NCBI RefSeq assembly: GCF_037042905.1
Contig: NC_087251.1
Coordinates: 22,632,001 to 22,696,000, forward strand
Direction: 5' to 3'
Source of the DNA: Lytechinus pictus
Taxonomy: Eukaryota
Length of the DNA stretch: 64,000 nucleotides
Under the pieces are notes generated by a model that saw only the letters and a list, made by a program, of their open reading frames with translations, did no database searches and was not told the DNA's origin. Numbering within the stretch: the first letter of the stretch is position 1; each line of letters begins with the position of its first letter. Both the position numbers and the translations under genes were made by a program. Positions 4,355 to 62,508 of the stretch are shown piece after piece.

Positions 4355-4366
4355 AGTATGTCTTAC

Positions 4367-7277: not shown

Positions 7278-7379
7278 CTGTTTCAGATCTTGCAAAACAT
7301 TTTCCTCCACTCCTTCGTCCAAGAATGCATCTCGAACGTTGTTAATCACATCATCGATTACACTTTTGTACAATTTGTG
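7278..7379 (-). CDS. GTF2A1: TFIIA alpha/beta precursor, exon 2 (HKLYKSVIDDVINNVRDAFLDEGVEENVLQDLKQ)
   Basis: Close match to the conserved TFIIA alpha helix region (KLYRSVIEDVINDVRDIFLDDGVDEQVL); ttttacAG acceptor and GTAAG donor; 102 nt, phase 0/0. Confidence 0.97.
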
Positions 7380-7743
7380 CTGTAAAATGCGAAAGAAGAG
7401 AATTTAGGGAAGGCTGAAAATATATATGATGAATAGATCTACATTATCAGGAAATTATTGAAAAAAAGACAAACCCCTGCAAACCATGATCATCGATTAC
7501 CAATTCATCCAATAATCTGTCGTTAATTTTGTTTATTATATTATTATCTGACGTCAAAATTTCGTCAAGAAGGATGCGTCCTCTGACTGAGTCTGACCTA
7601 TCTCCCTAAATATTTACTGAAATTTTTTATTTTAATCAAAATCAGACTCGGTTCATAGACAGTCATTTTCAAAAAAGACAATTTATTTAATTAAACACAT
7701 ATTTTTCCCCGTGAATTTTCTTATTAATCCCATAAAGGCTCAC

Positions 7744-7767
7744 CACAGTCTGAGAATTAGAAGCCAT
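7744..7767 (-). CDS. GTF2A1: TFIIA alpha/beta precursor, coding exon 1 (MASNSQTV)
   Basis: ATG at 7767 in AAAATGG context; 8 codons resembling the TFIIA-L N-terminus (vertebrate MANSANTNTV); GTGAG donor at 7743; phase 0 matches exon 2. Confidence 0.88.
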
Positions 7768-9764
7768 TTTCAAATTTCAAAAGAAAAGGTCCAGATCTGA
7801 TGAAATGAGAGTTGAAAAAAAGAGTACAGGTACGCTTCTCTCCTCACGTCTCGGCTCCACCGAAGCCACTGCAACTCTGTCGCTCGTGGCTTTTATACTC
7901 GTCAACAAGTTCTCTTTTTCACCTATAGGGGAGCGGCAAATTGAAGGAATTGTCATACCCCCTATTAAAACTCCTCGTTCAAAACTATTCAAGTTAATGA
8001 AAATATAATGTATCATTACATGTATAAAACAACAAAATTGGTTAATTGTAATTAGTTTTTATACATTTAGTAATAATATACAATCAAAAAGTCAATATTT
8101 TTTTTCATAATAGAGTTTTGTTTTCATAATTTGCTAATAGCCTTGTATGTAAAAATCGTCTGCTTCCGTTATCTAGTTTGTCGTCTGCTATATGACAATT
8201 GATGAAGAATACGAATTTGGAATAAATGCCTCAATGAATGACGAATATACCATTTTTAGCAGGTAGTTTTGATTTTTGAAAATATACAAATCATTCATCC
8301 GCAATGCAGTGAAATCCTTGGCAACACCTCGTTTCTAATTAATGTTCATGCAGGTGAATAAATAAATCTCTATCCCTTACAGGACAATGGTCTATCCTCA
8401 CAAAAAAAATGATTTGAAGAAGGATAAAATCAAACAAACAAGGTATTTGTACATCCTGGTCAGTATATAAATGAGGATTCTTGGAGATTTTTGTTTTTAT
8501 CTGACAGTAGCCATAGCAATATTGCTTCTCAGCCAATCAAAAATCAAGGTAAGTTGTCAGATCTGACAAGTTGTCGGATGAAAATGCTGATGAAACGCTC
8601 CCCTGATCGTGTAACCCGCTCACTATTTATTATTTTATGAAATATGAATGTTTTCATTTTCTCCTCATTATATTGTGAAACAAAGTTTGATTCCTCCCTG
8701 AAAATGTGGAATTAACGCTGATGTTCGATGTAGGGTTCCTTTATTGAAAAAATTTGCAAAATTTGAGATATCGTACAAAAAATACAATAGAAATAGTAAG
8801 TGAGTGAGACCATCGACTCTTTCACTTATGTGCATATGGTGAATTTAATTATTTCTGGAAAATAAACGAAGCCTTAAAATGTCATGGCTATCTTATTTCA
8901 CATCCGATTTCGATGAAGTTTCTACTTGTTTGATTTTTTTTATCTTCATTCAAATAAACTGTTGGGGGTGTACTTTCTTTTTAACATGAAAAAATGATTC
9001 CTCAAAACAGAAATTGAAACAAAGATTTTATTTACATTCAGTTAACCTTTACCGATTTGGTTGTTCAAAATCCACTTTTATTGCGCTTATCACATCGATG
9101 ATCGAGCCTTCTGATGCGCATATACAGATTAGTATAATGGTCAATATGGCTTGCCACTTTAATACAGTGTATATGCATATTCCCTAGCTAGGGGAGTATT
9201 CTATGATCAACGAGCAACTAGCCAATACATTGGCGTTCGCTTCCTTCCGGGAAACAAGGTGCATCTATGGTCACTTTACCACTACTGACCCGGTGGCAAT
9301 CGAACACAGAACCAAGGGCGCCGGAAGCGGGGGGGCAGGGGGGGGGCACTTGCCCCCCCCCCCAAATAAAATTTTTGGGGGGCAAAACGAGATTTTGCTC
9401 CCCCCCCCCCCCCATGTACCCCCCTAAAAGTAGAAAATGATAAATAATTTAAGGACAAAAGTAAACGATGAAGGCACTTTTCTGCCTAAAAATTGTAATT
9501 TCCATTGTCAAAAATGAATGACGGGGCTATTACATATCATAGTAAGCCTCGCGTCTTTTGACGATGTCCCTCTGCATGTGAAACATACCTTTGATAAACC
9601 CCTTTTCTATCTTATTACAGTGTGATAACGTTTAACCTTTTAATGAATACATTTCAGACTAAAACCGAATGGCAAATTGAAAGTGGTTCACCAATGCATG
9701 CTGGCTGTGTCGGCTAACAAACGCGCGGTCGCCCAAACGCTCAGACCGGACCCGATATCACTAA

Positions 9765-10174
9765 AGGCGACCGCACACCTTACGACTGGTCTGCGACCCG
9801 ATTTCAGAATAAAATGTTGTAGAATTTGATGCTAATATTGAGACTTGGAATGTCTTACTGTGTAATGTCATAAATCATCGTACGAATACCTATGATCAAA
9901 TCTGTGACTATATTATCATCTTAGAATAAAAGAGAATTTAATATCTAGTCGTAATGACGTCATAGCAGTCGTATGATTGGCTACGATTTGAAACTAATTT
10001 GGCCTTTACTTCAAAATAAAGGCTTGCAATCTTTCAAAATGGTTATAAGATTATTTTTTCAATTAATTTTAACCTCAAATAAAGTGATATGTTCCATTCA
10101 CATCTTCAGAAAATGAGCAAAATGCGATTTGTTCCAAAATCGGATCGCGAACAGTATAAGGTGTGCGGTGGCCT
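9765..10174. mobile_element. PIF/Harbinger-like MITE nested in the hAT element
   Basis: TIRs AGGCGACCGCACACCTTA and TAAGGTGTGCGGTGGCCT; TAA TSD on both sides. Confidence 0.85.
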
Positions 10175-12297: not shown

Positions 12298-12490
12298 GAG
12301 GCGCGATAGCTCAGTCGGTAGAGCGGGGGTTTCGGATTCCGGTGACCCGGGTTCGATTCCCAAATGGTGCGCTAGTGCCCTTTGGTAAGGCATTTATCCT
12401 CATTTCCAGGTCCCTCGGAGAGGACCTTAAGCCGTTGGTCCCCTGGTTGCTTGCTCACAGGCATTCGTGCTTTCTTAGCAGTCAGGTATA
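12298..12490 (+). mobile_element. tRNA-derived SINE
   Basis: Pol III A box TAGCTCAGTCGG and B box GGTTCGATTCCC followed by a non-tRNA body (...GGAGAGGACCTTAAGCCGTTGGTCCC...); no acceptor-stem closure. Confidence 0.8.
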
Positions 12491-12839
12491 AAACCTCGGT
12501 ATAAAGTATCCGATATGCGTCGGGCTAGTGGGCAAACTACTGACGGGCGAGGGCGCATCCCTCGCCCGTCAGTCTGCTTCGCGCGACCAGTAACTTGCCC
12601 ACTATAGCCCGGCGCATATATATCAGATAGGCTATACTCTGCTGTTGGCTAATATTTGTATGTTTATACCAATGAATAAATAATAATAATAATAGTAATA
12701 TTAAAAGTTGTTTATACCAGTTAATATATTTACAAAAATATAGTTTACCCTAATGAAAATAGGGTAGATTTAAAGAAAGTTATGAATCGCATGAAATCGA
12801 ATCAATTTTCTGACTAAGTATCGACTGGCAGTTCGAGGC

Positions 12840-13176
12840 ATTATAAACAAAAGCACGTGTCCGTACACGTGTCACTTTTACTTTAGCCCCACCCACTATT
12901 AAAACACGCCCATTTTGCCGCGCCCATTTTTGCGCGTCACATACGTCACATCGCGCGCCGTCATCGATCATGCACGCGCACGCGCACGGACTCGTACCGA
13001 CTCGACTGGGTCGAATCCATATCGAGTACGTATTTAACTGATTTATGGTCGAATCGAGTCTGGTCGTCTGAGCTGAGCCTGAGGATGAGATCGAGAGTCG
13101 AGAGTAGACCGAACGTACCGGTACTAGTATTGTTAGATTCCAACTTCTAAGTCGATTTTGGGAAATGTGACTGAGC
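12840..13176 (+). promoter_or_regulatory. CpG-rich putative Dmrt promoter / 5' UTR
   Basis: Local CpG enrichment in AT-rich DNA; two CACGTG E-boxes (about 12854 and 12866); E2F-like TTTTGCCGCGC and TTTTTGCGCG; directly upstream of predicted exon 1. Confidence 0.55.
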
Positions 13177-13219
13177 ATGATGCATAAATCTACTGCAAAC
13201 AAAATTTTGACTGGCATCT
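13177..13219 (+). CDS. Dmrt: DM-domain transcription factor, predicted coding exon 1 (MMHKSTANKILTGI)
   Basis: ATG downstream of a CpG-rich promoter-like block; strong GTAAGT donor at 13220; phase 1 matches the phase-1 acceptor of the DM exon, which has no in-frame ATG before the DM domain. Confidence 0.7.
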
Positions 13220-13956
13220 GTAAGTTAATCTAACTTAGGCCTTGCTTAGAACCTATGGCATGCCTATGGCTAGTCTACAATAAATTCAACGCCGTCGCTA
13301 GGGCCTAGTTAGATCTAACGACACGTTAGATTTAAAACAGTTGATAAGTAACGTTAGACTTAGTATCATCTAGTAGTAGTACTAGTACTAGGTCTAACTT
13401 AGGCCTAACGACCGTTTGGTGTATAAACAGTAACAGTAAGTTAAATTATACTCTAGATCTAACAGTTAGTTAGATCTAGCCCTATCTAGACCATGGTAGA
13501 CGGTCTAACTTCTAATGTTAGATACGGTAGACCGTAGAGTCTACTCTCTAAGTTCTAACGTTAATAGTAAAATACTCAGTTAGATCTAGGACCCAGAGAG
13601 CTCCCGCCCGCTCCCGCCCGCTGCGCGGGCGGGAGCTCTCTGGGTTAAGTTAGATCTAACTTAGCCTCAGCAAAGTTGCATAGAGTCTACGGTATGCTAA
13701 GTCCCTATAGCGATCGAAGCGAGCAAGAAAAAAATATCACCTTTTCATGATAGTCCAACTTTGAGATTGATTTTGACATGGTATCTATAGTATACTGACC
13801 ATACTATAGACTAGTGATAGTCATTATCTTACATACCGTAGGCCTATTCCTTTCTTTTCATTTCCTTTCCTGATATCTTTTCGTTTTTGTTCTCGGTTGT
13901 AATTTTTTAGAATCTTTTGGGGGCCAGTGCTAACGTTTTGCGGATCGGGTCCGGGG

Positions 13957-15718
13957 CAATGGCGGCACCAGGATTTTTATTAACCTAGGGCCTAGCTAGG
14001 GGGAGGCAAAATAACATTGGGGGGGGGGGGCGACACACAGATATTTTGCCGATTTCACAAAATCGAGCGAGAAGCGCGAGCCAATTAATTTTTTTCAATG
14101 TATAGACTATAGTCACGTATTGTATTTGTATTACCGGACACTATTATGATTCCGGACGCGCATATTACCGGTAGGCCCCCTATTGCGTTCTAAAACAAAT
14201 TCGTACCGTAAGACTTCCGCAATTCAATTTCTCAGAGCAATACATAGAACAAGATTGCAAAAAAAAGGCGAAAAATCCAACTTTAACCTAATTATCTCTA
14301 AAAATGACAGAAAATCCTTAAGTTATCATATAACATAGTTCTGTATTAACAATTGATATATTTTCTAACGGAAATATGGGCCTGATTTGCCGAATTTCAA
14401 TCTCGTCCACTCTTCGATCGAATGATGAGGTGTGGTGTATTGTGGGTGTGATCGTCGACGGCTAGTTGACCCCCGGCGCGGCCCCGTGCGCGAGGTTTAT
14501 CGTGAGTAGAGCCGTCGATCGGCAGCGCATCGATAGAACTTGAAGAGCGTCACGTTACGAACGCGAGCATATTATTATTGGAAAGTGCCATGGAATATGC
14601 AGCTAACAAGACAAAATAAAATAAGTTATCAAACACGAATTTATTACCAACATCTGCTCAGATTCGATATAAAAAAAGCAAATAATACTTAGAATTTACT
14701 CATGATATGATATAAGAAGAAAAAAATAACAAAAATTTGTTCTTACATCATTATAATCAAGGATATCTTTACCCGTCCGGCGCGCGTCCGGAATCATGAT
14801 GTAATTTGACGCGCACGAAAATGATTGTTTTTCGTGGAGGGGTATGCGGCAAGTACGATGCAAAGAAAATGGTTGGTAAATATAAAATAATTTTATCATA
14901 TTCATAATTTTTATAATATTTGGAATAGCAAGTGTGAATTTTTCTTGATTGTATTTCCTCTAGTTGTCACGTTTAAAGCACTGAAATAAAGGTGTCCGGC
15001 AATAGGATACACTGCCATACTAGTACTACCGTACCGGTACTATGTAGACCCTACTGACTTGAATTTGAAAAGGTAGGCTACCTGTTAGACTAGTTGTTTG
15101 CATATGATTGGGTCATGAAGATGATATCTCAGTTCTCACCAAATGAATAATAATGTGAGCGCGAAGCGCGAGCTGAAATTCTTTGATATCCTGAGTCTGA
15201 GATGAGTAACTGGACGTTTTAAGCACTTTTTGTTATGAACTGGATGGCTATCTGATTAAACAATTAATGCGAGCTGAAAATTTTTATTTATGAAAATTAT
15301 GTAGATAGGGGGGTCCTACGCAGGATATGTATCTCGCTAAAACGAATAATGGAAATTCTAATCGCAAGAAGCATATTGACTTGAACATTGCCATTGGATT
15401 TTGAAGCCCCATGTGAACAGATAATTTACCTATAGACTCAGTCAACAGTTATTGCGAGCGCGAGAGAAATTTTGAATTGTATGTACCGTAATGACCTGAA
15501 AGATTTATGTTAGTGACAAAAAATGTTGGGAGCTAAAACGGTGAATGAATGAGAAAATTTGCAAAATTTAAAGAACGATAAAGCTGTTTTGAAGCACTTT
15601 GCAGCTTTATTAGGATGCTGCATTAACTATACATTTTTCCAAATTTCGGGGGGGGGGGGGAGCAAGTCCCTGGGGGAAAATGCCCCCCCCCCCCCTGTGC
15701 CTCTTGGTGCCGCCACTG
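13957..15718. mobile_element. Non-autonomous hAT-like element in Dmrt intron 1
   Basis: TIRs CAATGGCGGCACCA and TGGTGCCGCCACTG; 8-bp TSD GTCCGGGG/GTCTGGGG; subterminal G/C runs. Confidence 0.8.
14118..15015. mobile_element. TIR element nested in the 13957-15718 element
   Basis: Imperfect TIRs GTATTGTATTTGTATTACCGGACAC and GTGTCCGGCAATAGGATACACTGC. Confidence 0.6.
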
Positions 15719-17459
15719 GTCTGGGGCGGAGCCCCCGGAACGTCGTGATATTTTAAACATTGCAGATGGCCACTTTTTTAAATCAAATCGCGGGTACATG
15801 CATACACAACAGTAACATAATAACTTAAATGCAGTTGCAGATAATAAACGGAATATTTTGAGTCAGCACAACATAGCAAATGTGGAAAAAAATTGCCAGC
15901 GAGCAAAGCGAGCCAGAAAAATATGGCCTTTTAAAGTGATTTCGAAATTAAATTCTAATTTTGTGATAGTAGCTTTGGAAATTAAGCCAAAGTAAATATT
16001 AAGAGGCTTTTTACGGTAAATCTAGCCAGCGTAAAGCTTTACTGTTATAGGTTAGGACATATTATGGGGAGATATAAATATATAACTAGCCCTTGGCTAA
16101 CCCTTTGCTTTTTTTTGTCCTGATTGCGACCATTATTGCATAAAATTTAGCAAGCTTACAATATAGACGCCATCCACCTTTCTCCCCGTTCTTTATATTT
16201 TTCAATCCCGGCAGCCCGATCGTGTTTTAAGTTCTTTTTCTTGTCCCTTTTCTTCATATTCTGATTTTCCAATTTAGCTTTTGGCTTTTCCTTCATTTCC
16301 CGTTTCTTTTTTACTCTTCCTAACATTTCCCGCCATTCTTGCCCGTGCCATTGATTCATATCTTTTAATCGTATATCCCTCTCTTGCTAATTATGCTAAT
16401 GTATTAGTATTTCAGGATATTTTGTACTTCCTCACATGTTCTTCTTTTCTTTTCCCTTTCTTTTCATTCTCTGTCTCCTTTTTCTCTTTCCCCGGTTTTT
16501 TTTATTTTCCCGTTTAAATCCGCCAAGGGGGGGGGGGGCAGCTTGCCCCCCCCCCCTGTTACGCCACTGCTAGAATCAAGTCTAACTTATATTTTAGACT
16601 TAGTCTAACGTTAGATCCTAGACCCCTTGGCCAAGATCTAGATCTAGTCTTGCTTTCCCTAACGTTGATCTAACGTGCGTTAGGCCTAAAAAGTTAGAGC
16701 TGTTCGTTAACGCCAAACGGTTTAACACGTTAGGCTCTAGATCTAGGACTACGTCGGTGTTATTGTTTAACCCAGGGTTGAAGTTGGTCATTCGATTAGT
16801 GTGTGGAATTCAGAGCGGAACAATAGACCAGTTCGTAGTTACTTCATGGACAATTTTGGTCAAATTACCTTTCATTATGATAGGCAGATTTCAAAGCAAG
16901 ATATTACGTAAGCTTGCCTCACATAGCAGGATGAAGAAATTGAATAGACCAGGTGACTAGAATAGCACACCAATTAACACTTTATAAAGGTATTTGTTGC
17001 ATTCCTACTTTGAATGCATATCATAGCATGTTGCACAATATACCAGTCGTTCATGGACCGGACGCGTTGTTGTTTTTTGTGGATGTAAATGAAAACCACA
17101 ATTCAAAAGAATATATGAATAATCAAGACATCAAAGTTGGTGCTAATCTCATTAGATTTTAAACCACCATGTCTCTTTAGTACAAATGACCTTCCTCTGA
17201 TCATGCGTAGAATCTTTTGATCATGCGTAGAAAGGAACTACGAACTGGCTTATTGCACTGAAGCAAATGTCATGGAACCTAAATTAGATCTAAAAGTTAG
17301 ATCTAGAGTCTACATATTATACTATTTTCGTAGATATAGGCTAAAGCTAACTTTTTCTACTACATCAAATTCTATTAACTAGATCTAGATCTAGAGTCTA
17401 GATAGATCTAGATCTAATACAGGCAATTGCGGTCATCTTTATTAGTGCAAATCGATAGC

Positions 17460-17640
17460 CGGGAGCCTATTGGTCTATAAATAATTCCCAGGTAAGTCTT
17501 TATCTCCCTTTTTGAAAACTGGTATAACTCTAGCGACTTTTTATTTATCTGGAAAATGCCTGAAGTAAATGAAAAATTGAATATTTGAGAAAGAGGTTCG
17601 AAAATATGATCCCTATTATCATATATCAACAGTCGAACTG
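17460..17640 (-). mobile_element. LINE (CR1/L2/Jockey group) reverse-transcriptase remnant
   Basis: Across frameshifts reads IFEPLSQIFNFSFTSGIF / PDK*KVARVIPVFKKGDKDLPGNY / RPI, the conserved N-terminal RT motif of non-LTR elements. Confidence 0.85.
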
Positions 17641-18889
17641 ATAAATCAGCATAGACTCCTTACTACTTGTTTTAGATTGATCAAGATTGTATTTTCTTTA
17701 ATTTCTGAACTTGTTATTGGCAGGAAGAAAAATGCTTGACTAATGTAATGTATGGATCCATAACATTTGACTCTTCAAGATGCTATCTGGTTTATATAAA
17801 TTAGCCCAAATATGATACATCCTGAATGAAAATTTTCAGCTATGATAATTCAGTCTTGTGTAAGGACAAATTAGGCATTCATTTGTAATTAAGTCCTGAG
17901 TGAATATATAAGCTGCAACTATATTCCCCCTCTTGTAATATTTCAACATCGTAATTCAAGATAGTGGCATTGAAAAACTGATTTATATATTTAACATTCC
18001 AAACTTCTGATAATGCGATTATATAAAAAGAATGATTCAAACACATCTTCATATAAATCGTTCAGTATTTCAAAATTACGATTCGAAGATCTCACATAAA
18101 GTTACGTGTGGAATAGGTAGATCTAGATCTAACGACACGTTAGATGGTAACTGAAACTAAAATAAAAAGGCTTCAGTTTCTCTAGACTACATGTAGATCA
18201 TGGGTGTCGATCTGCTTGCGCTTTGCATTATTACGTAACACCCCCCCCCCCCCCCGATGAAAAGAACTTTATGCGGATCGACACCATTGATGTAGATCTA
18301 GGCCTAGATCTAGACCTACAACTAGTTGTTCCGCCAGAGTCTGCAAATAAAAAGGGAGAAGGTAAGAAGAAAAAAAAGGAGACAGGAAAGAAGGTGATCA
18401 AGGAACTTTAGAAAAAAAGGAAAGACAAAGGAAAGATGAAAATTAGGGGAAATCCCTTTCCTGTCTTGTTTCTTTTCCTTTCACCTCGCTCTTTTTTTAT
18501 TGATTTGAACTCTGGTCTAAAGTATTCCTTTCACTATGGAAAGCCAACTGTGACAGGTGTCTCCAATATGTTTCAGATGATTTGACACTCAAATCATTCA
18601 TAATTGACTCGAAATAATTACTGAGATAAATCTTCATCATTAAAATATGAGGAAAGAGCCAAGCACGCATGAACTAAACCTGGATGTTGGTAGGGTGGCT
18701 GAGTCAAAAGTGGGGATCGGGAGAAGGAGCTGAACATGCATACAATCACAATTTGATTGTTATTTCATGTTTTTGTTCGTGGTTTCGGGGGGGGGGGGGG
18801 TACCATCTAGCAGGCACTTGGCATATTTATAGAATGGATAATGGTAATGTTATGCAAGGCACATTGGCATGTTTTGAAGAGTTTATTTT

Positions 18890-19297
18890 CAGTCGGTCTT
18901 ATGCCAATTCGTCAATTACCAACTCGTCTACTATCATTTGGCATCAGTTCGTCCACTATCCACATGGTCTAACTGCCATTTCGTCCAATCACCATCTCGT
19001 CTAATAACCAGTTGTCCAATAGCCATTTAGTCCATATACCGTTTGATCTAACTGGACAAAGTGTTAATCGGGTGAAATGACTGAAAATTAAATTAAATGG
19101 ATATTATACCAACTGGTTATCAGACCAAACGGTCATAGACGAACTGGCGATTACTTAATGAAGTGATGAATGGACCAATTGGCGATCGGACCGAATGGTT
19201 GTGGGTTGAAATGTTGATTGATGGAATGGCATTATGTTAAATGAAGGTAGACCATGTGATGTGTGGACTAGTCGGCGAATTGGCAATTTACCGATTG
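18890..19297. mobile_element. Inverted-repeat element with short internal repeats
   Basis: Left arm CAGTCGG..TGCCAATTCGTC with CCAA/GTCCA repeats; right arm GGACCA/GACGAA repeats ending GGCGAATTGGCAATTTACCGATTG. Confidence 0.6.
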
Positions 19298-19472
19298 GAA
19301 GACCAGCTAATAAAGTTGAAGTTGCTACCAAGGGTGACTAAATGTTAAGATTAATACATGTATCTTTTTTTTGTATTTATATGTAGATTAATACATGTAT
19401 CTGTTAAACGGACATAAGAGTGATAGGACCATCTACAATTTTCTCACTTTTACTTTCTGCTTTCCCTCTTAG

Positions 19473-19865
19473 ATGGCGCAGATGTGAATGGTCGGGAAGA
19501 TGAGTCACAAAGATGTCTCCCCCTTAAGAAAAGGCATCCAACCTGCGCTCGATGCCGAAACCACGGACTCATCGTGGACCTCAAAGGCCACAAGCATTTA
19601 TGCGAATACCGTGACTGCCTCTGCACTCGATGTAACCTAGTGATTCAACGGCGGGTAGTGATGGCGAAGCAGGTAGCCCTAAGTCGAGAGCAGTTGAAGC
19701 AACAGAGACAAGACCACAGTTTATCTCAACAGCTACAGGTCAGTCAAGGTTCCTCACAGGGTATACCATCGTCTCCAACAGTTATTGATCTCATTTCTGA
19801 AAGTACAAGGTCAGAGGAGAGGGCGAATTCTGTCGTTCAACTTTCACCGGATTCGACAAATATCG
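19473..19865 (+). CDS. Dmrt: DM-domain transcription factor, exon 2 (complete DM DNA-binding domain)
   Basis: [13 protein letters not shown]4[38 protein letters not shown] is the doublesex/mab-3 intertwined CCHC/HCCC zinc motif plus recognition helix; polypyrimidine tract and AG at 19471-19472; GTATGT donor at 19866. Confidence 0.95.
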
Positions 19866-20252
19866 GTATGTATCTTGCGAGGAATGAAACATTATTCATG
19901 ATTCTTATTTTAACATTTACATTGAACTAAATCAGAATATACATCAGGCCTTTTCATCTCAACTAAAATAAATGTAAGCTTTGTGTATTAAGACATTTTC
20001 CTATTGATTCTCATAATCCATGTCAGCTCATCGCGCCCGACGGTGGAGTCCAAATACTCCCTAAATTTTTGCCATAAAAAATTGTTCGCACGCAATTTTT
20101 TTTGCTCTAAGTTGTGATTCTTTGGTTTAAAAAAACATTCAGAATAATTGGAATTTAATAAACTTCAAATATATGCAAACTTTTACTAAGATCGAGCAAA
20201 AAAGCATTACCATTTTTTCGATTGAAACTCGCTTTTTTAATTTCTTCGACAG

Positions 20253-22327
20253 AATACAATAGTCCATATTCTTCTTGGGACTCGCCTCCGATGAATTTGT
20301 CACAGCCGACACAAATGACGTTGACTCCTCAGAAAGCATCAAGCCAAGCTTCGCGGTCATCTCCCACATCTTTCCAAGCAGTTCAGGAAAGCGAAACATA
20401 TAGACCACGAATGGTCTTCTTGACAAGCCCTTCGAATAGATCGTTAATACCACACCCCGTGGTACCTTACCCAGCTAGTGCCCCGAGAATTGTCTATAAC
20501 AGCGACAATATCCCCGGAGCTTCGGCCTTTATCAACTATGCGTCGTCTCAAGGCAATTTTGACCACGCGCTAGAGTACTCTCCTACGTCATATCACACGC
20601 CTCAATTAAATGAAATGTATCGACCCCAGCCTTTAGTCGGTGCCAACCAAATGGCAAGACCATTCGTACCAAGTCCCACCATACCGATGGCATCTGACGA
20701 ATCTATCAACCAACATATTGGATATATTCCCAGTCAAACGGCAACCTATTCCGCCAACCTTTCGTCAGCTCATGGTGTTACAGGACAAACGTCAGAGTAT
20801 CCCGCCAACCATTTGTTAGCTCATGGTGTTACAGGAAAAACGGCAGCCTCATCCGCCAACCATTTGTTAGCTCAGGGTGTTACAGGACAAACGTCAGAGT
20901 ATTCCGCCAACCATTTGTTAGCTCATGGTAATACAGGACAAACGGCAGCCTATTCCGCCAACCATTTGTTAGCTCATGGTGTTACGGGACAAGCGTCAGA
21001 GTATTCCGCCGACCATTTGTTAGCTCATGGTGTTACAGGACAAACGACAGCCTATTCCGCCAACCATTTGTTAGCTCATAGTGCTACAGGACAAGCGTCA
21101 GGGTATTCTGCCAACCATTTGTTAGCTCACGGTGTTGCAGGACAAGCGTCAGAGTATTCCGCCAACAATTCGTCAGCTCACGGTGTTGCAAGAGAAATAT
21201 CAGAGTTACATCCAAGATCAACATTCCATTCATCACTGGTGGATGAGACGTACCGGTGCCAAGTATCGATAACTTCAAATTATCCAACTGGACCAGTTTT
21301 CCATTGTCCCATGGTGCCACATCAACCATTTGACGCAGTCTCTGCATATCGCGATAGTTACATGTTGGCAAACTCACAGGTGGCTTCTAGCTCCGCCATG
21401 CATATTGATTCAATGTCGGAGACCCAACCGCCTTCAGAGGAAGCAACAGACCTGTCTAATATCCCGTACTGTCAAGTTAAAGAGCATGCGGACCTGCTGC
21501 ATCAGATACCGCTGTCAAGTTCGTTAAGGGTTTCATCATTCGTAAACCAATCAGCACAAAACTTCATGCCGGCCCAAGAATATTACAGCAATCCAGATAG
21601 ATATACTTCATGCTCTTTGCCAGCAGATTCGGCAACAGCAGCGTATTTATTTCAAACAGGAGATAAAGCTATGTTATCTTCTGAAAATGACATCTCATTC
21701 CAGGGTGTCGACCTTACTAGACGGCCCCAAATCGATACAACACCACTGCAACCAGAAAAAATCCATCTGAATCACGCTGACGGCTTTTCTTCTAGGTCAG
21801 TACCATTAACTACGACACAGCAAGAAATCGCAGTTAATATTTCAAAAGAACCAACCTACAAATCTCGTCGACCTTTTCCTCTTAGGATCACCATCCCGTC
21901 CCTGAATCTATCAGATAGATTCACCGACAGTCCGTCTCCAAGTCCCATGGACCCATCGCCAACTTTCACACCATCAAACTTAAGCATTCTCACTAACACC
22001 TCTCTGCCGACAAGTGATATTCCATCTCCTGGATTCTTTACTGCGTCTCTCCCTTCCTTCAACTACCCATCTCCTACATTGCCCACTCAGAGCTCTCCCG
22101 TCTTTAGTTACCCATCTCCTTACACCAATCCCTCTAAGCATGCAGGATTGCCGTCTTTCCAAAGTCTGACGGACTCGATTTTACCTGTGACGCAAAGCAG
22201 CCGGTTGCCTTCAAATTTCGCGGAGCAGGTTCGGATCCCGCCGAAATATGACGAAGACTTTGACAACGACCATGATCACGAGAGTGACGAAATTGACGTT
22301 TGTTCTTTGAACCCTTATGCCCGGTGA
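20253..22327 (+). CDS. Dmrt: DM-domain transcription factor, terminal exon 3 (about 690 aa, S/P/T-rich, internal 17-aa repeats)
   Basis: tttcttcgacAG acceptor in phase 1 joins exon 2 in frame to a 2.07-kb open frame ending TGA at 22327; AATAAA at about 22638. Confidence 0.88.
20747..21205 (+). repeat. Coding minisatellite, 9 x 51 bp (YSANHLLAHGVTGQTSE)
   Basis: Nine consecutive units starting tattccgccaacc, no frameshifting indels, inside Dmrt exon 3. Confidence 0.95.
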
Positions 22328-24224
22328 AAAGGTATAATTTTTAAAGGCTTTTATATCCATTTGTCTGCTTGTCAACCAATGAATTTGTCGAATTTGTAAG
22401 ATATTTGTATCTTCACATAACTGAGAAAGAGTAAGCTGAAACTGTACATAGAATAAGAAGCAGATTCTTCGCGCTTGAAGACTTATATTATGCTTTTGCT
22501 TGCCAACCAATGAATTTGACGAATTTTATTTACATAACTGACACATGTATAAATAATGTAAAAGGGATATAAAAGAATCATTTGAATTTGTCATGCTAAA
22601 ATCAGCATTTTATCGCCGGCATGTAAAATCAACCTTAAATAAAAAAAAAAATGTTTTTTGTATTTTGAAAGTCGAAAATGGGCTTATGGCCAAATTCAAA
22701 TCCGTGATACAAAAATCTACAATTTAAAGTTCAAAATTAAACTCTAATGTTGTTTTCAAAATACATCTTTTTGTCAGGATTGTAAGAAGTGCTTTCGAAT
22801 TTGGTGAAGTTTTTACCATACCACAAATAATTACAACAGTTTCCGTGCCAAATATTGTATGTAAATTATTACAAAAAAACTTGTATGTAATAATTTAATG
22901 AGTTTATTCCGGGGTTGTCATTTTTTTCGAGCAATCTGCTTATAATGACAATCCTTCTCCTGCAAACTGTAAATGTTAAATTTTCTTTGTTGGTATAATA
23001 GATCATATTTGTTTAGAATGACTTTTTTATTTTGTATTTTTTTTCTTTATGATTCATACCAAAATCAATTACCGATATATTATGTTTGTTACGAAATGAA
23101 AGTTATATTGTATACGAATGTTATATACATGAATGCAGAAGAAAAAAAAAATCAAATCAAATAATAATCGGTAACCTTTGTGGTCTTTTCGACCCCTGTA
23201 ACTGAAGGCCTACCCAGCTCCCGTTGATCTTATCATAACCCAGTGTTTTTAATAATATTCTTCAATATTTACCACCTCGATATTTCGTGTATAAATTAAT
23301 TTTCTTTAAGGCATATTGACCGTATCTATTAGTCAATACAATAATTAGAATTGTCTGTGTGATATCTTAAATACAGTAAAAAACAAATTAAGCATTCCCA
23401 ATAATGTTCCTTTCTATTTTTAATTCAGCATTTGCTATTGAGTTGAAAAGTTGAATCATAGTGTTCATATCCTTTATAAGTCCAAGCTGTCGATTCGGGA
23501 TATAACAGCAAAAACATTACTGACAGAATTCTTACGTGAAAATTCTTAAGAGAAACGGGAATATTCAATTCACAAGTTCTTTATTCGTCCATAGCTACAC
23601 TGAAATTCGGCGTGGTCACCCATATGATATTCATATAATAAAACATGCTTATACAAAACACAATTTTTACAAAGGCGCTGCTCAGTTATTTACACTTTTA
23701 GAATTGACTGCGTTGATATAAAACTATATAAATGTTGAAAGGAATGCGATATTTAAATTTGAATTAATAATAAATTCAATCCTATGACGATTAATAATCC
23801 CAAAATTGTTGCATTGATAAATATAAAAACAATTTTATTAATAAGGAGGAAATTTGACGTAAAATGCCAATGATATTTATTCGTTGCACTGTTTGCAATT
23901 TACACTATTATTTTAAAGAAATCGGAAGAAAAAAAAGTGGGGGAGAACATGTATTGTGATGGCAATTTATAAATTCAAATCATAATTATAATTGTAATAT
24001 AATCCATGTACATATTGCTGATGCATTAATAAATACGGAAACAAATCAGTGAAAACAAAGTGGATAAAGGTGAGTATTCCAATGATGCACTATAATGATA
24101 AGAGGAAGATGGGGGATATGTTATGTAATGCCAAATCGAACCATTTTCTTTCTTCTTAAAAAATAAAGATAGGAGGGTTGTGTGATAGCGGGTGTAAAAC
24201 AGGACCACGCCCAATTGACGTTCA

Positions 24225-32932: not shown

Positions 32933-33213
32933 TCACTGCTGCAAACATCGGCCCGGCGCATCATCATCATCGACAGGAGAATGCCTGATGTAGTTGTCTG
33001 TGATCTGCACCTGATACTCATACCTTGCCATGTAGCGTATCCTCTTCTCTGGAGATTTCTCACTGGAGACGGCCAAGGATCGTACAGTGGTCTTGGAGGC
33101 CGTGGTGTGAGGGGTGTGGTACTCCACCTCTACGTTGCGGGAGAAGCTCTTGCTGACCTCTTTAATAGAACTCAGGTTCAGGTGGCACTTGAATATGTGG
33201 GTAGATGGATGAC
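32933..33213 (-). CDS. STON2: Stonin, terminal coding exon 5 (GHPSTHIFKCHL...ASKTTVRSLAV...YEYQVQI...CLQQ*)
   Basis: End of the mu-homology domain; tttttctgtaatAG acceptor in phase 1; TGA at 32935-32933. Confidence 0.93.
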
Positions 33214-40603: not shown

Positions 40604-40711
40604 CTGAGGATTTCTCTGGCAGTCTGTCTATCCTCCACATCACCGCTCTGTAGGCATGTTCATACTTTGCTGTTCCTACAGAGATCTCCAGTAGCTTTGG
40701 ATGAAGACAAC
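40604..40711 (-). CDS. STON2: Stonin, exon 4 (GCLHPKLLEISVGTAKYEHAYRAVMWRIDRLPEKSS)
   Basis: GTAKYEHA-x4-WRI-x-RLP is a stonin mu-homology motif; absent from the ORF track; ttccAG acceptor, GTAAAT donor; 108 nt, phase 1/1. Confidence 0.95.
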
Positions 40712-47793: not shown

Positions 47794-47952
47794 CTCTCTT
47801 AATAATATCTGCCCTCTTGATGACTGCATGGATTGAGGATTGTCCAACCCTCTTTGGTTTCCTGAAATACGAGATCCAATGCTCTGGGATGGGAATGTGG
47901 ACAAGGATGTTTTCACACAGGAAATGGTTGGGGTTTCTCTTTCCAGAGCAGG
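47794..47952 (-). CDS. STON2: Stonin, exon 3 (ACSGKRNPNHFLCENILVHIPIPEHWISYFRK...IKR)
   Basis: Matches the stonin CENVxIRxPVPxEWVKxFR segment; cccAG acceptor, GTAAA donor; 159 nt, phase 1/1. Confidence 0.9.
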
Positions 47953-48189
47953 CTGGGTTACATTTATATTGCAAAAGATGAAAAGATAAAGAGTATTTTA
48001 GGATAATTCTGATCAATGAATTGATTTTGAACATCTATTTTTGAAACCTTACTGAAAGAATAACTAGCACATCAATGATGTGGAGCTCATCCGGCATCTC
48101 GCAACAAAATTTAACACAATTTTAATTTCAGCCCAGTTAACACTGTAGTGAATTATATTGGTGACATTAATTGAGGATATAGAATTGAA

Positions 48190-49490
48190 ATTGATGAAGA
48201 AATGACATAGAAGCATTTTTTGTGATCTATGAATAAATTTCATATAAATTAAGCATAAATAATTTTCTAGTCAAAATTTCTAAACTCTGTGTAGAACCTT
48301 GGTGAACCTCATGTAGCTCTGAGATGGAACAAAAATAATAGAAATCAATCAACAAATAAATAAGTATTTTTTGTGAGTTTTGAAAATATATGAATAAATT
48401 AGCATATTTAATGAGTTTCAAAATTCTGTGTTGAAATTTTGTATCACCACCTCGAGCTATCATATAAAGCAAACAAAATTTAAATTAATCAACATATGAA
48501 AAAGAAAAAACATTTTTTGTGATTTATGAATAAATTTTGCATAAATTAGCATGAATAATTTCGTAGACAAAATTTTGTGTACAAGTTTGGTGAACCTCAT
48601 GCAGCTCTACCAGATGGAAGAAAAAAAATCGAAATCGGTCAACAAATAAAGAGGCATTTTCTGTGATTTATGAATAAATTTCGCATAAATTGGCAGAAAT
48701 AATTTTCTACTGAAGATTTCAAAATTCTGTGTTGAAGTTTGGTGAACCCCATGAAGTTCTACCAGATGGAAGAAAAAAATCAAAATTGGTCAACAATTAT
48801 TAAAAGAAGAAGCATTTTATGTGAATTTTGAAAAATGCTCATAAATTAGCATATTTAATGAGTTTCAAAATTCTGTGTAGAAGTTTTGAATCCCCCACCT
48901 AATGCTATCATATAAAGCAAACAGAATTGAAATCAGACTTTAAATGACGAAGAAGCATTTTGAAATTCAGTCAACAAATAAAGAGGCCTTTTCTGTGATT
49001 TATAAATTTCGCATAAATTAGCATATATAATTTTCGAATCCAAATTTAAAAATTCTGTGTAGAAGGTTGGTGAACCTCATGAAGCTCTACCAGATGGAAG
49101 AAAAAAAAAATCAAAATCGGTCAACAAATAAAGAAGAAGCATTTTATGTGAATTTAAAAAAATATGCATAAATTACTTTTGCATAAAATTGTTCTAGTCA
49201 AAATTTCAAAATTCTGTGTTGAAGTTTGGTGGACCTAATGAAGCTCTACCAGATGGAAGCAAAAAATCCAAAATCGGTCAACTATAAAGAAGAAGCATTT
49301 TTTGTGAATTTTGAAAAATGCTCATAAATTAGCATATTTAATGAGTTTCAAAATTCTGTGTAGAAGTTTTGAATCCCCCACAGAGTGCTATCATATAAAG
49401 CAAACAGAATTGAAATCGGACTTGAAATGGTGAAGAAGAAGCATTTTCAAATTGTGGACGGACGACGGACGCCACGCCACGGCATAAGTT
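48190..49490 (+). repeat. Complex tandem array (about 9 units of 110-160 bp, two subtypes), probably the core of a Helentron-like element
   Basis: Recurrent AGAAGCATTTT...CATAAATTAGCAT...AAAATTCTGTGT.GAAGTTT blocks; ends in GGACGGACGACGGACGCC like the 36.5-kb element. Confidence 0.75.
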
Positions 49491-49871: not shown

Positions 49872-52205
49872 CTGGTACCAGCAGATCCACTCTAAGTTCC
49901 ATATGTGTGCCTTCACCAGAAAAAGCAGCCTTGACCTGTAGGGGGAGGTCCTCATCTTCTGAAGGCTGTATATGAAATTGCATGAGTCTAAAGCGACAGG
50001 CATTCAATGGCTGAAACTCAATCATGCGGGAGTCCACAAACACATTCTTATTTGCACACTTGTGTAGTTCTACATCATTCATCTTGATCCAATCCGAGGT
50101 TTTATTTGGGATGATGTGTTGTCTGGCAACAACATCCATGCCTTTGATCTGGACATCATTAAGACCTATTGCACAGTCAGGGCTTCCGGAGAGAAAGGAC
50201 AAGATATTGAGGCTAACAGATATGGATTGCCGCAAAGTATCTCCATTGTCATTCACAAAGCAACGGCATTCATCAGAAACAACAACTTTTATCATGTCCT
50301 GTTGGTAGTGAGCGCCTCTATCCTGGTAAAGGGTCAATTTCATCAAGGCATCATTGATAGTAAACACAAAGCTCTGGAACACCTTAAAATCAAGAGAACC
50401 AAGCTTCATAAGTTCTTCAAGGTGGGATTCTTTTTCGTACATGGATTTGGCACTCACTCTCCGTTTTTCTTTGTAGGAGATGTACAAAAGTTTAATTGTG
50501 TGTATTTTACCCTTGTAATCAAACTGCTGAAGATTTGGATGGCTTATCTCATAGTTGCTCTGCAAGGGCAGTTCACGGAATGGTTCCTTTCTAGTCCTGT
50601 CATAATATAACTGAAGGATGTTTCCTTCAGCTAGTTTTACATGGATAGGCTGCCAGGAACGTGAGCCTGCAATGCGTTTTTTATCGGGAACTCTGAGTTT
50701 TAGAGGCCATCCTATTGACAGATCCTCTTGCTCACGAGGGTACTGATCCTGGAATAGCTTGTCACTATAAGGAGATGATAAATTTGACTTTATGCTTGTC
50801 TGGGTGTTGAAAGCGAGTTTACCACTGTCAGGCATATCACTCCCCTCTGTAATTGATGTTGTTGTAGGCGAAACAATGGCTGCAAGTGTCTGCTTGCCTA
50901 GAGAAATGTTCTGATGTGTTGAAGAATAGCCACTCTGAGGAGATGTTGGAAAGAACTGTTGCTGCTGCTGCCACTGATTAGGCTTCATACCAATTGGACT
51001 TACTGGCTGAGATGCATATGAAGCGGGAGAGAGGATGGCTGTAGTTAGTTTATCATCATGTTGCACAGCACTGGACTGCATCAATGGTTGTACTGCCATG
51101 ACTTGCCTCACAGGTTGTGCAGCTGATACATTTTGTTGGGCAGCTGCCGCACTTTGTTGTGCAGCTGCAGCAGCAGCAAAAATAGCTTGTCCCTGTACTT
51201 GCTGCTGTGGTGTAAATGATGCAGACACATTAGATCTGTTGGGAACATTAGAAGCTACTGCTATATCTGCAAATGGATTACCTGGACTGCTTGGCACTTT
51301 CTGATTATTTGCTGAAGCACCATCTGTATCATCAAAGGTTGTCCATGTGGAAGGTGCATTTGATTTAACAGGTGTGGTTACCAACTCTGACCCGCTCAAG
51401 TTGAGGAAGGGGTTGTATGGTGAGACAGTCCTCCGAACCTGTTCCTCCATAACTTTTTGTTTCTCTAACTGCTTCAGAGTCAACATATCTGCTTTAAAAG
51501 GGTTTCCAGGAGAAGCTGTTTCATACTTTGAATCAGAAGCAGAAGCTACTTCAGATAACATGGATACTTCTAAATCATGCGCATGGTCAGTCATGTGAAC
51601 AGGGGTTGAAGTGGCTGTAACTGTCCTTGAGGAATTTATGTGAATGCCAAAACTTATATCTTCCTGTTTTAGTTTCTTTACTTGAATATGACTAGGAGTA
51701 GCATGTTCCTTTTTGGTAGTCTCAAGAGGTCTGCTGTCCCTCATTGCACTAACATGTAGTTCCTCTACAGGACATTCTTGAGTGATAGAGTTCTCACAAG
51801 ATGATAAAACAGGTGATGGTCTAGAGGATGTTGAAGATATTGTCACATCATTGTCATAATTGAACTGCACCCACTGGGCAGGAGCAGGACTGGACACTCT
51901 AGAGGTGTCCAGACTACCATTTTCTTCACTAATCCCCTTTACTGGGACCACACTCTTCAATGGGGTTGAACTCACAACTTTCCTAGAGTCTCCAAACCTG
52001 ACCCATTGTTCTGGGTGAGGGGTAACATTTCCTGGCTTTGGTGATGACGACAATGATTCTAAAGGCATGTACTCTCTTGAGCTCGAGATGTTATCATGGG
52101 ATCCTGAAAAGCTACCTCTTGAAGATATCACTGATGATGCTACAGCTGAATGATGATCATCAGATGCTTGGGATGTGACATCAGCACCACTCTGAACTGA
52201 CCCAC
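49872..52205 (-). CDS. STON2: Stonin, exon 2 (WxxF/NPF region, stonin homology domain, start of mu-homology domain)
   Basis: GWPLKLRVPDKKRIAGSRSWQPIHVKL is the stonin homology domain; LSFLSGSPDCAIGLND and FQPLNACRFRLMQF are mu-homology motifs; 2334 nt, phase 1/1. Confidence 0.96.
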
Positions 52206-59593: not shown

Positions 59594-60067
59594 CAGGGTA
59601 GGGCTCAATTACTTTCTTCAATTACAATTAAAATTCCAATTACGTAATTCAAGAAATGTTAAATTACAATTCTTTTCAATTTTCATTATTTTCAATTTTA
59701 CCAATTACTTTTGTCGATTACATTTCAATTACTTTAAGTCATAAATCAGAATATATCAGATCAATTTATAATTTGTATGTAGCACTTCTTTATGGCAATT
59801 CTCCTCTTTCCTCTCTATCATGGGAAAGGATTAATTTCATGCAAGAGATAGCTATTAGGGAGAAGAGAAATAAGCAATCCAGAGTAAATTGAATAATGAA
59901 TTAATGAAGTAATGTAATTGAATGTAATTAAAAGTAATTAATAGTAATTTAAGTCAAATACAATTTTTAAATTACAATTACAATTACTTTCTCTTTAAAT
60001 ATTTCAATTACATGTACAAATATGTACATGTAATTAATCAATTATTTTGTAATTGAGCCCAACCCTG
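59594..60067. mobile_element. Non-autonomous hAT-like element with AATTAC subterminal repeats
   Basis: TIRs CAGGGTAGGGCTCAATTAC and GTAATTGAGCCCAACCCTG; 8-bp TSD GTAGAGGC/GTAAAGGC. Confidence 0.85.
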
Positions 60068-62252
60068 GTAAAGGCTAAACTAAGATTACATTTCAGAAAT
60101 ATACTCTGAGTCTAGATACTTGAGAAAATGATGGTTACAAAAGTGAATACACCTTCAGTACTGGTATGTTATACCTCCACTGAAATTTGATCAAATCAGG
60201 AGTAAACAGGACCTGGGAGTAGATCCATCATCTTTCATTAAATCTGCATACATATTCTAGATAGGAAGTAGGCCTATGGGTGCTCTGTGCTTTAAAAGTT
60301 GAATGGGAGAGGTAATTGGTGTTGATGATGTCTTCTATCAGTAACACGCATCAAGCACACCACTTCTGAATATATGGAAGAGGACAGAGGAGGTATGCAA
60401 CTCTGAACACTACAATAATGTACGTCCATCCAAGATGTCATCAAAGAGAGGTGAGATATTAAAAAAATTCAGGATACAAAATATTAATAATAAATGCTAA
60501 CATTTATAGGGTGCTTTATACGGTTGTTTCAAAGCGCACAGGTGGGCTGACTAAAGTAAACAATTAATTCTTTAAAAAAAAAAAAAAAACCTACATGTAT
60601 GCTGGTGTTGAGAAAAGGTGAGTTTTTAGTGAGGATTTGAAAATTTCAACAGAGGGAGCATTTTGAATGAGTTGACTCCTCACAAGAATGGTAACATATT
60701 ATACTGAAAATTAATGCTTGAAATATATGACCATGTAACAAGTCCTATTTTTATGATCATATTTCAATGTAAATATATCACAGGGTGTACTCACTTTTGT
60801 TGCTACCATTTTCTCATATATATAGACTTTGATAAATAATAATAATGGATCATAAACATTGCAAATTATGATTTTACTCTATGAGTCTATGTTAAAGAGG
60901 GAGAACCAATTAACTGTGGACTGTTATTGACTGGAAATGACTATAAACAAAGTCTTAAAATATACCTACATGTAATTTGCACAAACTAGTAATACAGAGG
61001 ATAATTTAGGCTTTATTATTACCTATACAAGGCATATTAGCAGATAAATAAACATCATATTTTGCTCGCTACTTTCAATCTGAGACCAAGGAGGTAAAAA
61101 TTTGCCATGTTGCCCTCCCCGGGCTTTGCCCATAGGTATCCTGTACAAAAACAGAGGGCAATATTGGCCATATTTCTGCTAGTGCACTTGCGCAGTAGGA
61201 GCCGATTTTGATTGCTAATTCAGTATTTGAGAAATCTAGCTGGAACCAGTTTATGAACCAACGCATTGTAAATAATGCGTGGTGCGACCAGTGCATCTCT
61301 ACGCAGTGCATACACAAAACCAAGCGCAAGATTTCCATGCGTTAAGTGTACAGGGGTGTATGTGCGTGCCATGCATGATGCACAACTACTAGGTTACAAT
61401 TAATACGTCATAATACTTAGCAAGGGTTACTTTACATCGTGAATAACCTGAAATCATGAGTGACAAGCAAACAGGCATATAAATTGTTCCAAATAATAGC
61501 TTGTATTACACATTGGACAGCCTTTCATAGTAGTAATACTACTAATAATAATATTTACTGGCTCTTCTTTAGGGAAACATCAAATATGTTGCCCTTAGAA
61601 GAACCATATTGCCCTCGTCTATTAAAAGACTTGTGTCTCTTGATTATAAATAATTCAAGTTTCAAATTTGATTTGTTAAATAATAATTTTTATTGATCTT
61701 CAAAACGGCATTTTGTAACATCGCTGATCGAAGCTATGTCATGATGAAGCGGTTCAAGGGTCAAGCCTACTTGCCGTGTTTACAAATGGATCAAGGGATC
61801 TACACGAGATCGGTCTGGTAAGAAACTTTCATTTTTCATATTTAGATCTATACTAAAAATAATTTTAACCCCTTCATACGCAATTGAATAGGCGTATGAA
61901 GGTTCAATAAGAGAAACAAAACCGATTTCACCCTCTAATTATGGATTTCCTAGGGAAATCCATCCTTGTTGACAAGCCTTGCTTATGCATATATGGCAAC
62001 CATTTCAAGGCTATGTGATGAAAAAGTATATGTAAAAAACTTTAAAAATGAAATATCATCACGGAGTCAGCTATGTGCGGCCCGCGTCTACACCCTTTTC
62101 AACGCTTTGTCTGTTTTTTTTTTTTGTCACGCATGCGCATGTGCACAGCCACAGCAATATATTTGACTGCTCCAACCCCCCCCCCCCCCCAGGATATTAC
62201 CCAGAATTTGTCTAATTTTACTTTCAAAGTGAACATAGATTCTACAACGTAC

Positions 62253-62508
62253 CTGTATGTTGAGTTATCACAGGCCGCTGGGTCTCCTCCGGGCGATGAC
62301 CCGTAGTCGTGGGAGTACCTCGGCGCGGTGATTCTTCAAACTTCACCCAACTTCTGCTGGAACCTGCGCCCACCTCTCCAGGACCAGGCTCAACAACCAT
62401 AACGCCAGAGTCTTCTCTTGATTTACCTGCCAAGGGTAGGACTGGTCCTTTCCCAACAACATCCCTATCTTCGTCATCTCCATCGTCAAATGACACCCAG
62501 TCAGACAT
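62253..62508 (-). CDS. STON2: Stonin, coding exon 1 (MSDWVSFDD...SWVKFEE...)
   Basis: AAAATG start; two WVxF-acidic AP-2 appendage-binding motifs characteristic of stonin N-termini; GTACG donor at 62252; phase 1. Probably a single invertebrate co-ortholog of STON1/STON2. Confidence 0.88.

What the first reader, a model, noticed from the sequence alone, without database searches (positions are those of the whole stretch)
7278..62508. Stonin-GTF2A1 tandem pair preserved in an invertebrate, with a Dmrt gene between them
Seen: stonin (62508-32933) is upstream of GTF2A1 (7767 and leftward) on the same strand, and the Dmrt gene (13177-22327) sits between them on the opposite strand. Established: vertebrates have the same same-strand pairs STON2-GTF2A1 and STON1-GTF2A1L. 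Inference: the linkage predates vertebrates, and the Dmrt gene is a later lineage-specific insertion, head-to-head with TFIIA (ATGs about 5.4 kb apart) and tail-to-tail with stonin.
Basis: partly seen in the sequence, partly recalled or inferred. Interest (0 to 1): 0.75.

Follow-up and report, generated by a model that had tools for sequence, protein, structure and literature searches.

The report
Ancient stonin–TFIIA gene pair, split
Two unrelated genes that sit side by side in humans also do so in this sea urchin and in amphioxus, so the pairing is older than vertebrates, and in sea urchins a testis-associated gene has come to lie between them.

Summary
The three genes are real and lie as described: stonin (−, five exons), a long Dmrt (+) and TFIIA-αβ/GTF2A1 (−). 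The window matches Lytechinus pictus records. A RefSeq amphioxus model joins a whole stonin to a whole TFIIA-αβ, so amphioxus has the same order and strand. Record numbers and contig lengths place both genes together in Lytechinus, Strongylocentrotus and Diadema. Vertebrates carry the pair twice. The Dmrt is the known echinoid 'Dsx-like'/'Dmrt1' gene. It is also between the two in S. purpuratus (by accession order) and seems away from stonin in a starfish, a crinoid and a sea cucumber, so an echinoid-lineage insertion is likely but not shown. TFIIA could not be placed in those outgroups. No protostome adjacency was seen (0 of 3 molluscs). The Dmrt start at 13177 is unverified, and 'head-to-head' does not mean a shared promoter: TFIIA is spliced in four runs where Dmrt has almost no reads. 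This is ordinary conserved microsynteny. The unexpected extra is the amphioxus fusion model, a possible invertebrate counterpart of human STON1-GTF2A1L read-through.

The parts
62253..62508 (-). stonin coding exon 1 (ATG at 62508)
   Evidence: 87% identical to L. variegatus stonin residues 1-84; GT donor. The L. pictus RefSeq model P0001 lacks it and starts in the intron.
49872..52205 (-). stonin exon 2 (disordered N-part with WxxF-like motifs, stonin-homology part, start of mu-homology domain)
   Evidence: PF00928 E 1.6e-23; 100% identical over the searched part to L. pictus stonin-2-like
47794..47952 (-). stonin exon 3
   Evidence: tblastn and AG/GT ends
40604..40711 (-). stonin exon 4
   Evidence: tblastn 100% and AG/GT ends
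32933..33213 (-). stonin last coding exon; runs without an intron through the place (33010) where vertebrate stonin-TFIIA fusions leave stonin
   Evidence: PF00928; shark fusion junction mapped here; donor check
   Evidence: in phase with the DM exon, GTAAGT donor; CpG o/e 1.94 in 12701-13000; no RNA support
18834..18843 (+). rival Dmrt first coding exon
   Evidence: in phase; matches the first residues of L. variegatus XP_041467722 as printed in the supplement of PMC10175285; no RNA support
19473..19865 (+). Dmrt DM-domain exon
   Evidence: PF00751 E 2.3e-20; aligns to the DMRT1 and Doublesex DM structures with the Cys/His pattern intact
20253..22327 (+). Dmrt last exon: 690 aa, S/P/Q-rich, no DMA domain, with a 51-nt (17-aa) repeat in 9 copies at 20747-21206
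   Evidence: no Pfam family; TRF; near-identical by eye to Lv XP_041467722
7744..7767 (-). TFIIA-αβ (GTF2A1) exon 1, ATG at 7767
   Evidence: RNA joint 7379-7744 in 4 of 4 runs; matches P0028
7278..7379 (-). TFIIA-αβ exon 2 (phase-0 acceptor, the exon that vertebrate fusions splice into)
   Evidence: PF03153 E 8.4e-13
1724..4894 (-). further TFIIA-αβ exons (about 4894-4733, 4429-4367, 3170-3053, 1918-1724); the C-terminal 110 aa lie left of the window
   Evidence: tblastn with P0028; ORF at 3169-2882

Best explanation
[quoted passage not shown] The pair was inherited by amphioxus and echinoids, and doubled in vertebrates into STON1-GTF2A1L and STON2-GTF2A1. It persists mainly by descent, because deuterostome genomes rearrange slowly here. 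It does not need to be strictly adjacent. In the sea urchin lineage a diverged Dmrt copy moved into the gap on the opposite strand, at least before Lytechinus and Strongylocentrotus split (inferred from record order). It has its own promoter, probably the CpG-rich stretch near 12.7-13.2 kb (inferred), and is off in samples where TFIIA is on (shown for four runs). The tail-to-head layout and a phase-0 TFIIA exon 2 make read-through splicing easy. This explains fused models in vertebrates and amphioxus that use different junctions.
For: Gene order in the window is shown directly. Amphioxus model P0329 (XP_078674693, 2157 aa): residues 1-1805 are 99.8% identical to B. belcheri stonin and residues 1817-2157 are a whole TFIIA-αβ (PF00928 and PF03153). 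Its TFIIA part falls among invertebrate TFIIAs, outside the vertebrate fused set. L. variegatus stonin and TFIIA are XP_041468920 and ...921 on one 45.6-Mb contig; D. antillarum ...485827 and ...485828 on one 3.09-Mb contig; D. setosum both on one 52.4-Mb contig. On a 426,703-bp S. purpuratus contig the order is stonin ...839683, then TFIIA ...839701/707, and the long Dmrt is ...839690 (Table 1 of PMC10175285). On the main scaffold stonin is ...854340 and Dmrt ...854341. Vertebrates: 11 of 199 stonin-set proteins carried TFIIA, all in the vertebrate clade, from both the STON1 and STON2 sides. STON1 and STON2 are listed as ohnologs (supplement of PMC7530604). An insertion also separates STON1 and GTF2A1L in anole (passage, PMC12360902). 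Dmrt accessions lie at least 8650 (A. planci), 3457 (Anneissia) and 8063 (Apostichopus) numbers from stonin.
Against: All outgroup placements rest on protein records, not DNA. No starfish, sea cucumber, crinoid or hemichordate TFIIA was among the 120 listed of 459 hits, so the pair is untested there. Accession distance is a blunt ruler: true neighbours differ by 708 in L. pictus and 873 in S. purpuratus. In A. rubens a Dmrt lies 529 numbers from stonin, within that range. The Dmrt position in Diadema and amphioxus is unknown; a fused model does not exclude an opposite-strand gene in its intron. The amphioxus evidence is 1 model of 5 in its cluster, from a hybrid assembly. Molluscs: 0 of 3 pairs shown adjacent.
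Confidence: 0.75

Rival explanations
1. The Dmrt was already between stonin and TFIIA in early echinoderms or deuterostomes and was lost or moved in other lineages. The starfish-specific Dmrt class would be its orthologue.
For: A. rubens Dmrt XP_033629679 is 529 accession numbers from stonin XP_033629150. The paper's 'Dsx-like' class also holds sea cucumber and crinoid genes (PMC10175285).
Against: Dmrt accessions are thousands of numbers from stonin in A. planci, Anneissia and Apostichopus, whose stonin scaffolds are about 1.1 Mb. The paper puts starfish genes in a separate class and notes low support for the Dsx-like class.
Confidence: 0.12
2. The pair is held together by selection on a stonin-TFIIA read-through transcript that predates vertebrates; sea urchins either lost it or still make it across the Dmrt gene.
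For: Fused models exist in sharks, rays, a sturgeon and amphioxus (12 of 220 stonin-set proteins). The window keeps a phase-0 CAG|GT at the vertebrate junction (33010) and a phase-0 TFIIA exon 2.
Against: The junctions differ: amphioxus joins at stonin's end and keeps TFIIA's own Met, while vertebrates leave stonin earlier and enter exon 2. The urchin site has no intron and a weak donor (4 of 7 consensus letters, as low as the weakest true donors). None of the named echinoderm or hemichordate stonin models carries TFIIA. The pair tolerates insertions in urchin and anole.
Confidence: 0.1
3. The adjacency is convergent: two genes of the same ancestral chromosome ended up together separately in echinoids and chordates.
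For: Pinctada has both on one 67.9-Mb chromosome without shown adjacency. Intermediate ambulacrarians are untested.
Against: Same order and strand in echinoids, amphioxus and both vertebrate paralogue pairs. With over a thousand genes per urchin chromosome (recalled), the chance of this layout is about 1 in 1000 (rough inference).
Confidence: 0.04

Closest known systems
Vertebrate STON1-GTF2A1L and STON2-GTF2A1 pairs; human STON1-GTF2A1L (SALF) read-through
   Same: Stonin upstream of TFIIA-αβ on the same strand; TFIIA exon 2 begins in phase 0 at the residue where shark fusion models join.
   Different: One copy of each gene; an opposite-strand Dmrt lies between; no intron at the vertebrate exit point in stonin; no read-through seen. 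The human SALF details are recalled.
Conserved ancestral microsyntenic pairs (CAMPs; Irimia et al. 2012, PMC3514665)
   Same: Two unrelated genes kept as neighbours across phyla.
   Different: CAMPs need four or more major taxa; three are shown here. Whether this pair is in their Table S2 could not be read.
Echinoid 'Dsx-like' Dmrt class (Sp XP_030854341, Lv XP_041467722), called Dmrt1 in sea urchin gonad studies
   Same: DM domain and long tail match the printed sequences by eye; no DMA domain.
   Different: More copies of the 17-aa repeat than the printed S. purpuratus sequence shows; first exon unsettled. Its place between stonin and TFIIA was not found in print in my searches.

Membership tests
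Stonin | C-terminal mu-homology domain preceded by a stonin-homology region | tested here: met
   PF00928; best hits are all stonins; groups with echinoderm stonins
TFIIA-αβ (GTF2A1) | Conserved N-terminal helical region (PF03153) | tested here: met
   E 8.4e-13; spliced RNA joint
TFIIA-αβ (GTF2A1) | Conserved C-terminal β region | not testable with these tools
   Lies left of base 1 and no genome is held; present in the matching record P0028
Dmrt | DM zinc-binding domain with intact Cys/His pattern and recognition helix | tested here: met
   PF00751; alignment to 4YJ0 and 1LPV
Echinoid Dsx-like Dmrt class | 700-800 aa, single DM domain, no DMA, sequence match to Sp and Lv members | tested here: met
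   825-836 aa model; no DMA; compared by eye with the printed first 400 residues, not by alignment
Vertebrate DMRT1 orthologue | Falls in the DMRT1 clade | not tested
   No tree built here. PMC10175285 and PMC6737965 report no invertebrate DMRT1
Conserved ancestral microsyntenic pair (CAMP) | [quoted passage not shown] | tested here: inconclusive
   Vertebrates, cephalochordates and echinoids support it; 0 of 3 molluscs; hemichordates and cnidarians untested
Bidirectional (head-to-head) promoter pair | Starts within about 1 kb and shared expression (definition recalled) | tested here: not met
   ATGs 5410 or 11067 bases apart; TFIIA joints present while Dmrt exons have near-zero depth in the same four runs. 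Transcription starts were not mapped
SALF-type stonin-TFIIA read-through | Splice from stonin coding sequence into TFIIA | tested here: inconclusive
   Window: in-phase but weak donor, no joint listed, stonin end outside the laid stretch. Amphioxus: one predicted model only

The most novel reading that the evidence does not exclude
Stonin-TFIIA read-through is an old chordate trait, real in amphioxus and not a vertebrate quirk. The sea urchin testis 'Dmrt1' is an echinoid invention that landed inside this ancient pair, cut off read-through, and may have taken up germ-line regulatory elements of the TFIIA locus. That would parallel the germ-cell role of vertebrate GTF2A1L (recalled).
Probability: 0.15. 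Interest if true: 0.65.

Novelty: new member of a known kind. Interest (0 to 1): 0.38.

Why it matters
It dates the human STON-GTF2A1 neighbourhood, the source of a much-cited read-through fusion, to the deuterostome ancestor, and points to a possible fusion transcript in amphioxus. It also gives a synteny anchor for the echinoid 'Dmrt1' gene, whose orthology the short DM domain cannot settle. The stonin-TFIIA interval can now be used to date its arrival and to test whether sea cucumber, crinoid and starfish 'Dsx-like' genes are true orthologues. As a case of conserved gene order alone it is ordinary.

Tried and rejected
No whole genome is held, so nothing left of the window could be read. The run finder listed no RNA holder for the Dmrt stretch. 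The metagenome scan with a seven-stonin alignment gave 2 loci of 61 pattern matches; L001 is a vertebrate-type STON2, and neither locus held TFIIA or DM sequence. The TFIIA searches listed no named starfish, sea cucumber, crinoid, hemichordate or amphioxus protein (3 hits; 120 listed of 459). Of 10 clusters looked up, 6 had no names, so cnidarian and most mollusc pairs could not be matched. Pinctada accession order was rejected as a ruler: locus tags step by about 13 per accession, which suggests non-positional numbering. Literature searches for the pair found nothing on invertebrates: none of the 20 papers listed held STON1-GTF2A1L; 1 paper, vertebrates only; 0 each. The Irimia supplement was not readable. 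The supplements of PMC4729200 and PMC6292497 and data file 2 of PMC8809688 had no name hits. An attempt to anchor the PMC8809688 orthogroups on recalled chicken id ranges gave six rows that could not be identified. The ESM Atlas added nothing. Earlier findings of this scan: 5 look-ups, none relevant. A shared bidirectional promoter was considered and rejected on distance and expression.
Full report
1. Observation. The window is animal DNA of about 35% G+C. The stonin exon-2 protein is 100% identical over the searched part to a Lytechinus pictus record and 88% to S. purpuratus, so this is a sea urchin locus. Stonin has five coding exons from 62508 to 32933 on the − strand. They give 1045 aa with no internal stop, and 996 residues are identical to L. 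variegatus stonin. TFIIA-αβ starts at 7767 on the − strand. Its first intron is confirmed by RNA joints at 7379-7744 (8, 6 and 8 reads in three raw-read runs, and one contig in a fourth run). About 218 of its 329 residues map in the window. The Dmrt gene lies on the + strand, with a DM exon at 19473-19865 and a last exon at 20253-22327. Stonin's stop is 25.2 kb from the TFIIA ATG and 10.6 kb from the Dmrt stop.

2. Other sea urchins. L. variegatus stonin and TFIIA are consecutive (XP_041468920...921) on one contig. D. antillarum has a consecutive pair on a 3.09-Mb contig, and D. setosum has both on one chromosome, 19 numbers apart. S. purpuratus has both on a 45.2-Mb scaffold and again on a 426,703-bp contig. 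There the long Dmrt accession (...839690; Table 1 of PMC10175285) falls between stonin (...839683) and TFIIA (...839701/707). On the main scaffold Dmrt follows stonin directly (...854340...854341). The ruler is blunt: true neighbours can differ by 700-900 numbers (L. pictus 708, S. purpuratus 873). Consecutive numbers also do not exclude a gene between, so the Dmrt position in Diadema is unknown.

3. Amphioxus. One of five members of the amphioxus stonin cluster, XP_078674693 (B. floridae x B. belcheri, 2157 aa), runs from stonin into a complete TFIIA-αβ. Residues 1-1805 are 99.8% identical to B. belcheri stonin, residues 1817-2157 match TFIIA, and both Pfam families pass their cut-offs. In a 25-row tree its TFIIA part lies among invertebrate TFIIAs. 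Whether or not the fusion is a real transcript, such a model needs stonin upstream of TFIIA on the same strand within intron distance.

4. Vertebrates. TFIIA sequence was found in 11 of 199 stonin-set proteins before the amphioxus records were fetched, all in the vertebrate clade of the tree. They include shark and ray STON1-type models and a sturgeon STON2-type model. The count was 12 of 220 afterwards. STON1 and STON2 share an ohnolog id in the supplement of PMC7530604. PMC12360902 describes the GTF2A1L-STON1 block across tetrapods and a large insertion between the two genes in anole (passages). Shark fusions leave stonin at a site that maps to window 33010 and enter at the first residue of TFIIA exon 2. 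The urchin has no intron at that site and only a weak in-phase donor. The amphioxus model joins at stonin's very end and keeps TFIIA's own start. The junctions are therefore not the same.

5. Beyond deuterostomes and gaps. Three molluscs had both genes named. Elysia chlorotica and Plakobranchus ocellatus have them on different scaffolds; both stonin models are partial, and the Plakobranchus one is named AP-1 mu but groups with Elysia stonin. Pinctada imbricata has both on one 67.9-Mb chromosome, with adjacency not shown. In Drosophila they are on different chromosomes (recalled). Stonin records were found for two Asterias species, Acanthaster, Apostichopus, Holothuria, Anneissia and Saccoglossus, but no TFIIA record of these was among the 120 listed of 459 hits. 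The pair is untested there.

6. The Dmrt gene. By eye it is the orthologue of Lv XP_041467722 and Sp XP_030854341 (first 400 residues printed). These are the long echinoid members, which PMC10175285 describes as the sea urchin genes of its weakly supported 'Dsx-like' class. A review reports the echinoid gene called Dmrt1 as testis-specific in Mesocentrotus nudus and places it in this class (passages, PMC13666137); that it is this very gene is my inference. The nearest Dmrt accessions to stonin are 8650 numbers away in A. planci, 3457 in Anneissia and 8063 in Apostichopus, on stonin scaffolds of about 1.1 Mb. This suggests the gene is not beside stonin there. In A. rubens one is 529 away, which is ambiguous. 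In the four runs laid, bins 19816-22471 had zero depth in the three raw-read runs (about a quarter of each read, tissue unknown) and at most 1.01 in the contig run, while TFIIA was spliced. This argues against a shared promoter and fits, but does not show, gonad-restricted expression.

7. Mechanism. Shown: the layout in this window, TFIIA splicing, and the domain content of the amphioxus model. Inferred: a deuterostome-ancestral pair (about 0.9), an echinoid-lineage arrival of the Dmrt (about 0.75), and retention mainly by descent, since insertions are tolerated in urchin and anole. Read-through looks like a repeated by-product of the tail-to-head layout. Selection on an old fusion transcript remains a minor rival.

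8. Comparison and novelty. It works like a conserved ancestral microsyntenic pair. PMC3514665 reports 595 such pairs of unrelated genes (passages); its table could not be read and may already list this pair. Membership under its four-taxon rule is inconclusive, with three taxa shown. My searches found no paper on this pair in invertebrates or on the Dmrt's neighbours, but the library lacks most subscription papers. What I saw of each paper: PMC10175285 parts 1-3 of 4 and six supplement rows; PMC6737965 passages and part 2; PMC13666137, PMC12360902 and PMC3514665 passages; PMC7530604, PMC8809688, PMC4729200 and PMC6292497 supplement searches only (plus the first part of one data file of PMC8809688); PMC7269912 the list of its supplements only.

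9. Verdict. Real and correctly read; a new member of a known kind; interest 0.38. The parts worth follow-up are the amphioxus fusion model and the synteny anchor for the echinoid 'Dmrt1'.

Noticed in passing
window 20747-21206: 51-nt tandem repeat, 9 copies, inside the Dmrt last exon, coding a 17-aa unit. The printed S. purpuratus orthologue shows about one unit and L. variegatus several, so it probably expanded in Lytechinus.
   Followed up: partly
window 62253-62508: The L. pictus RefSeq stonin models (P0001, P0032) lack this first exon and start in the intron; L. variegatus and S. purpuratus models have it, so the L. pictus models look mis-started.
   Followed up: yes
window 12301-12490: ARAGORN calls tRNA-Arg(TCG) at 12301-12372, but Rfam does not. 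Many diverged reads pile up here with loose ends at 12298, so it is probably the head of a tRNA-derived SINE.
   Followed up: partly
window 32884: Consensus-like splice donor 49 bases after the stonin stop codon on the − strand; it could be a 3' UTR intron or an exit for a non-coding read-through.
   Followed up: no
window 105-646: Array of 16- and 42-nt units in a TFIIA intron, a satellite- or MITE-like repeat.
   Followed up: no
window 36649-37281 and 48511-49453: Tandem arrays of about 157-nt and 152-159-nt units in stonin introns.
   Followed up: no
proteins P0017, P0019, P0020, P0022, P0023, P0026: Six named shark and ray 'stonin-1' reference models are stonin-TFIIA fusions with one shared junction, which suggests the read-through is widespread in cartilaginous fish.
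   Followed up: partly
L001 9263-16436: A metagenome contig holds a vertebrate-type STON2 with an intron at the site where vertebrate fusions leave stonin; it lacks two introns that the urchin gene has in the mu-homology domain.
   Followed up: partly
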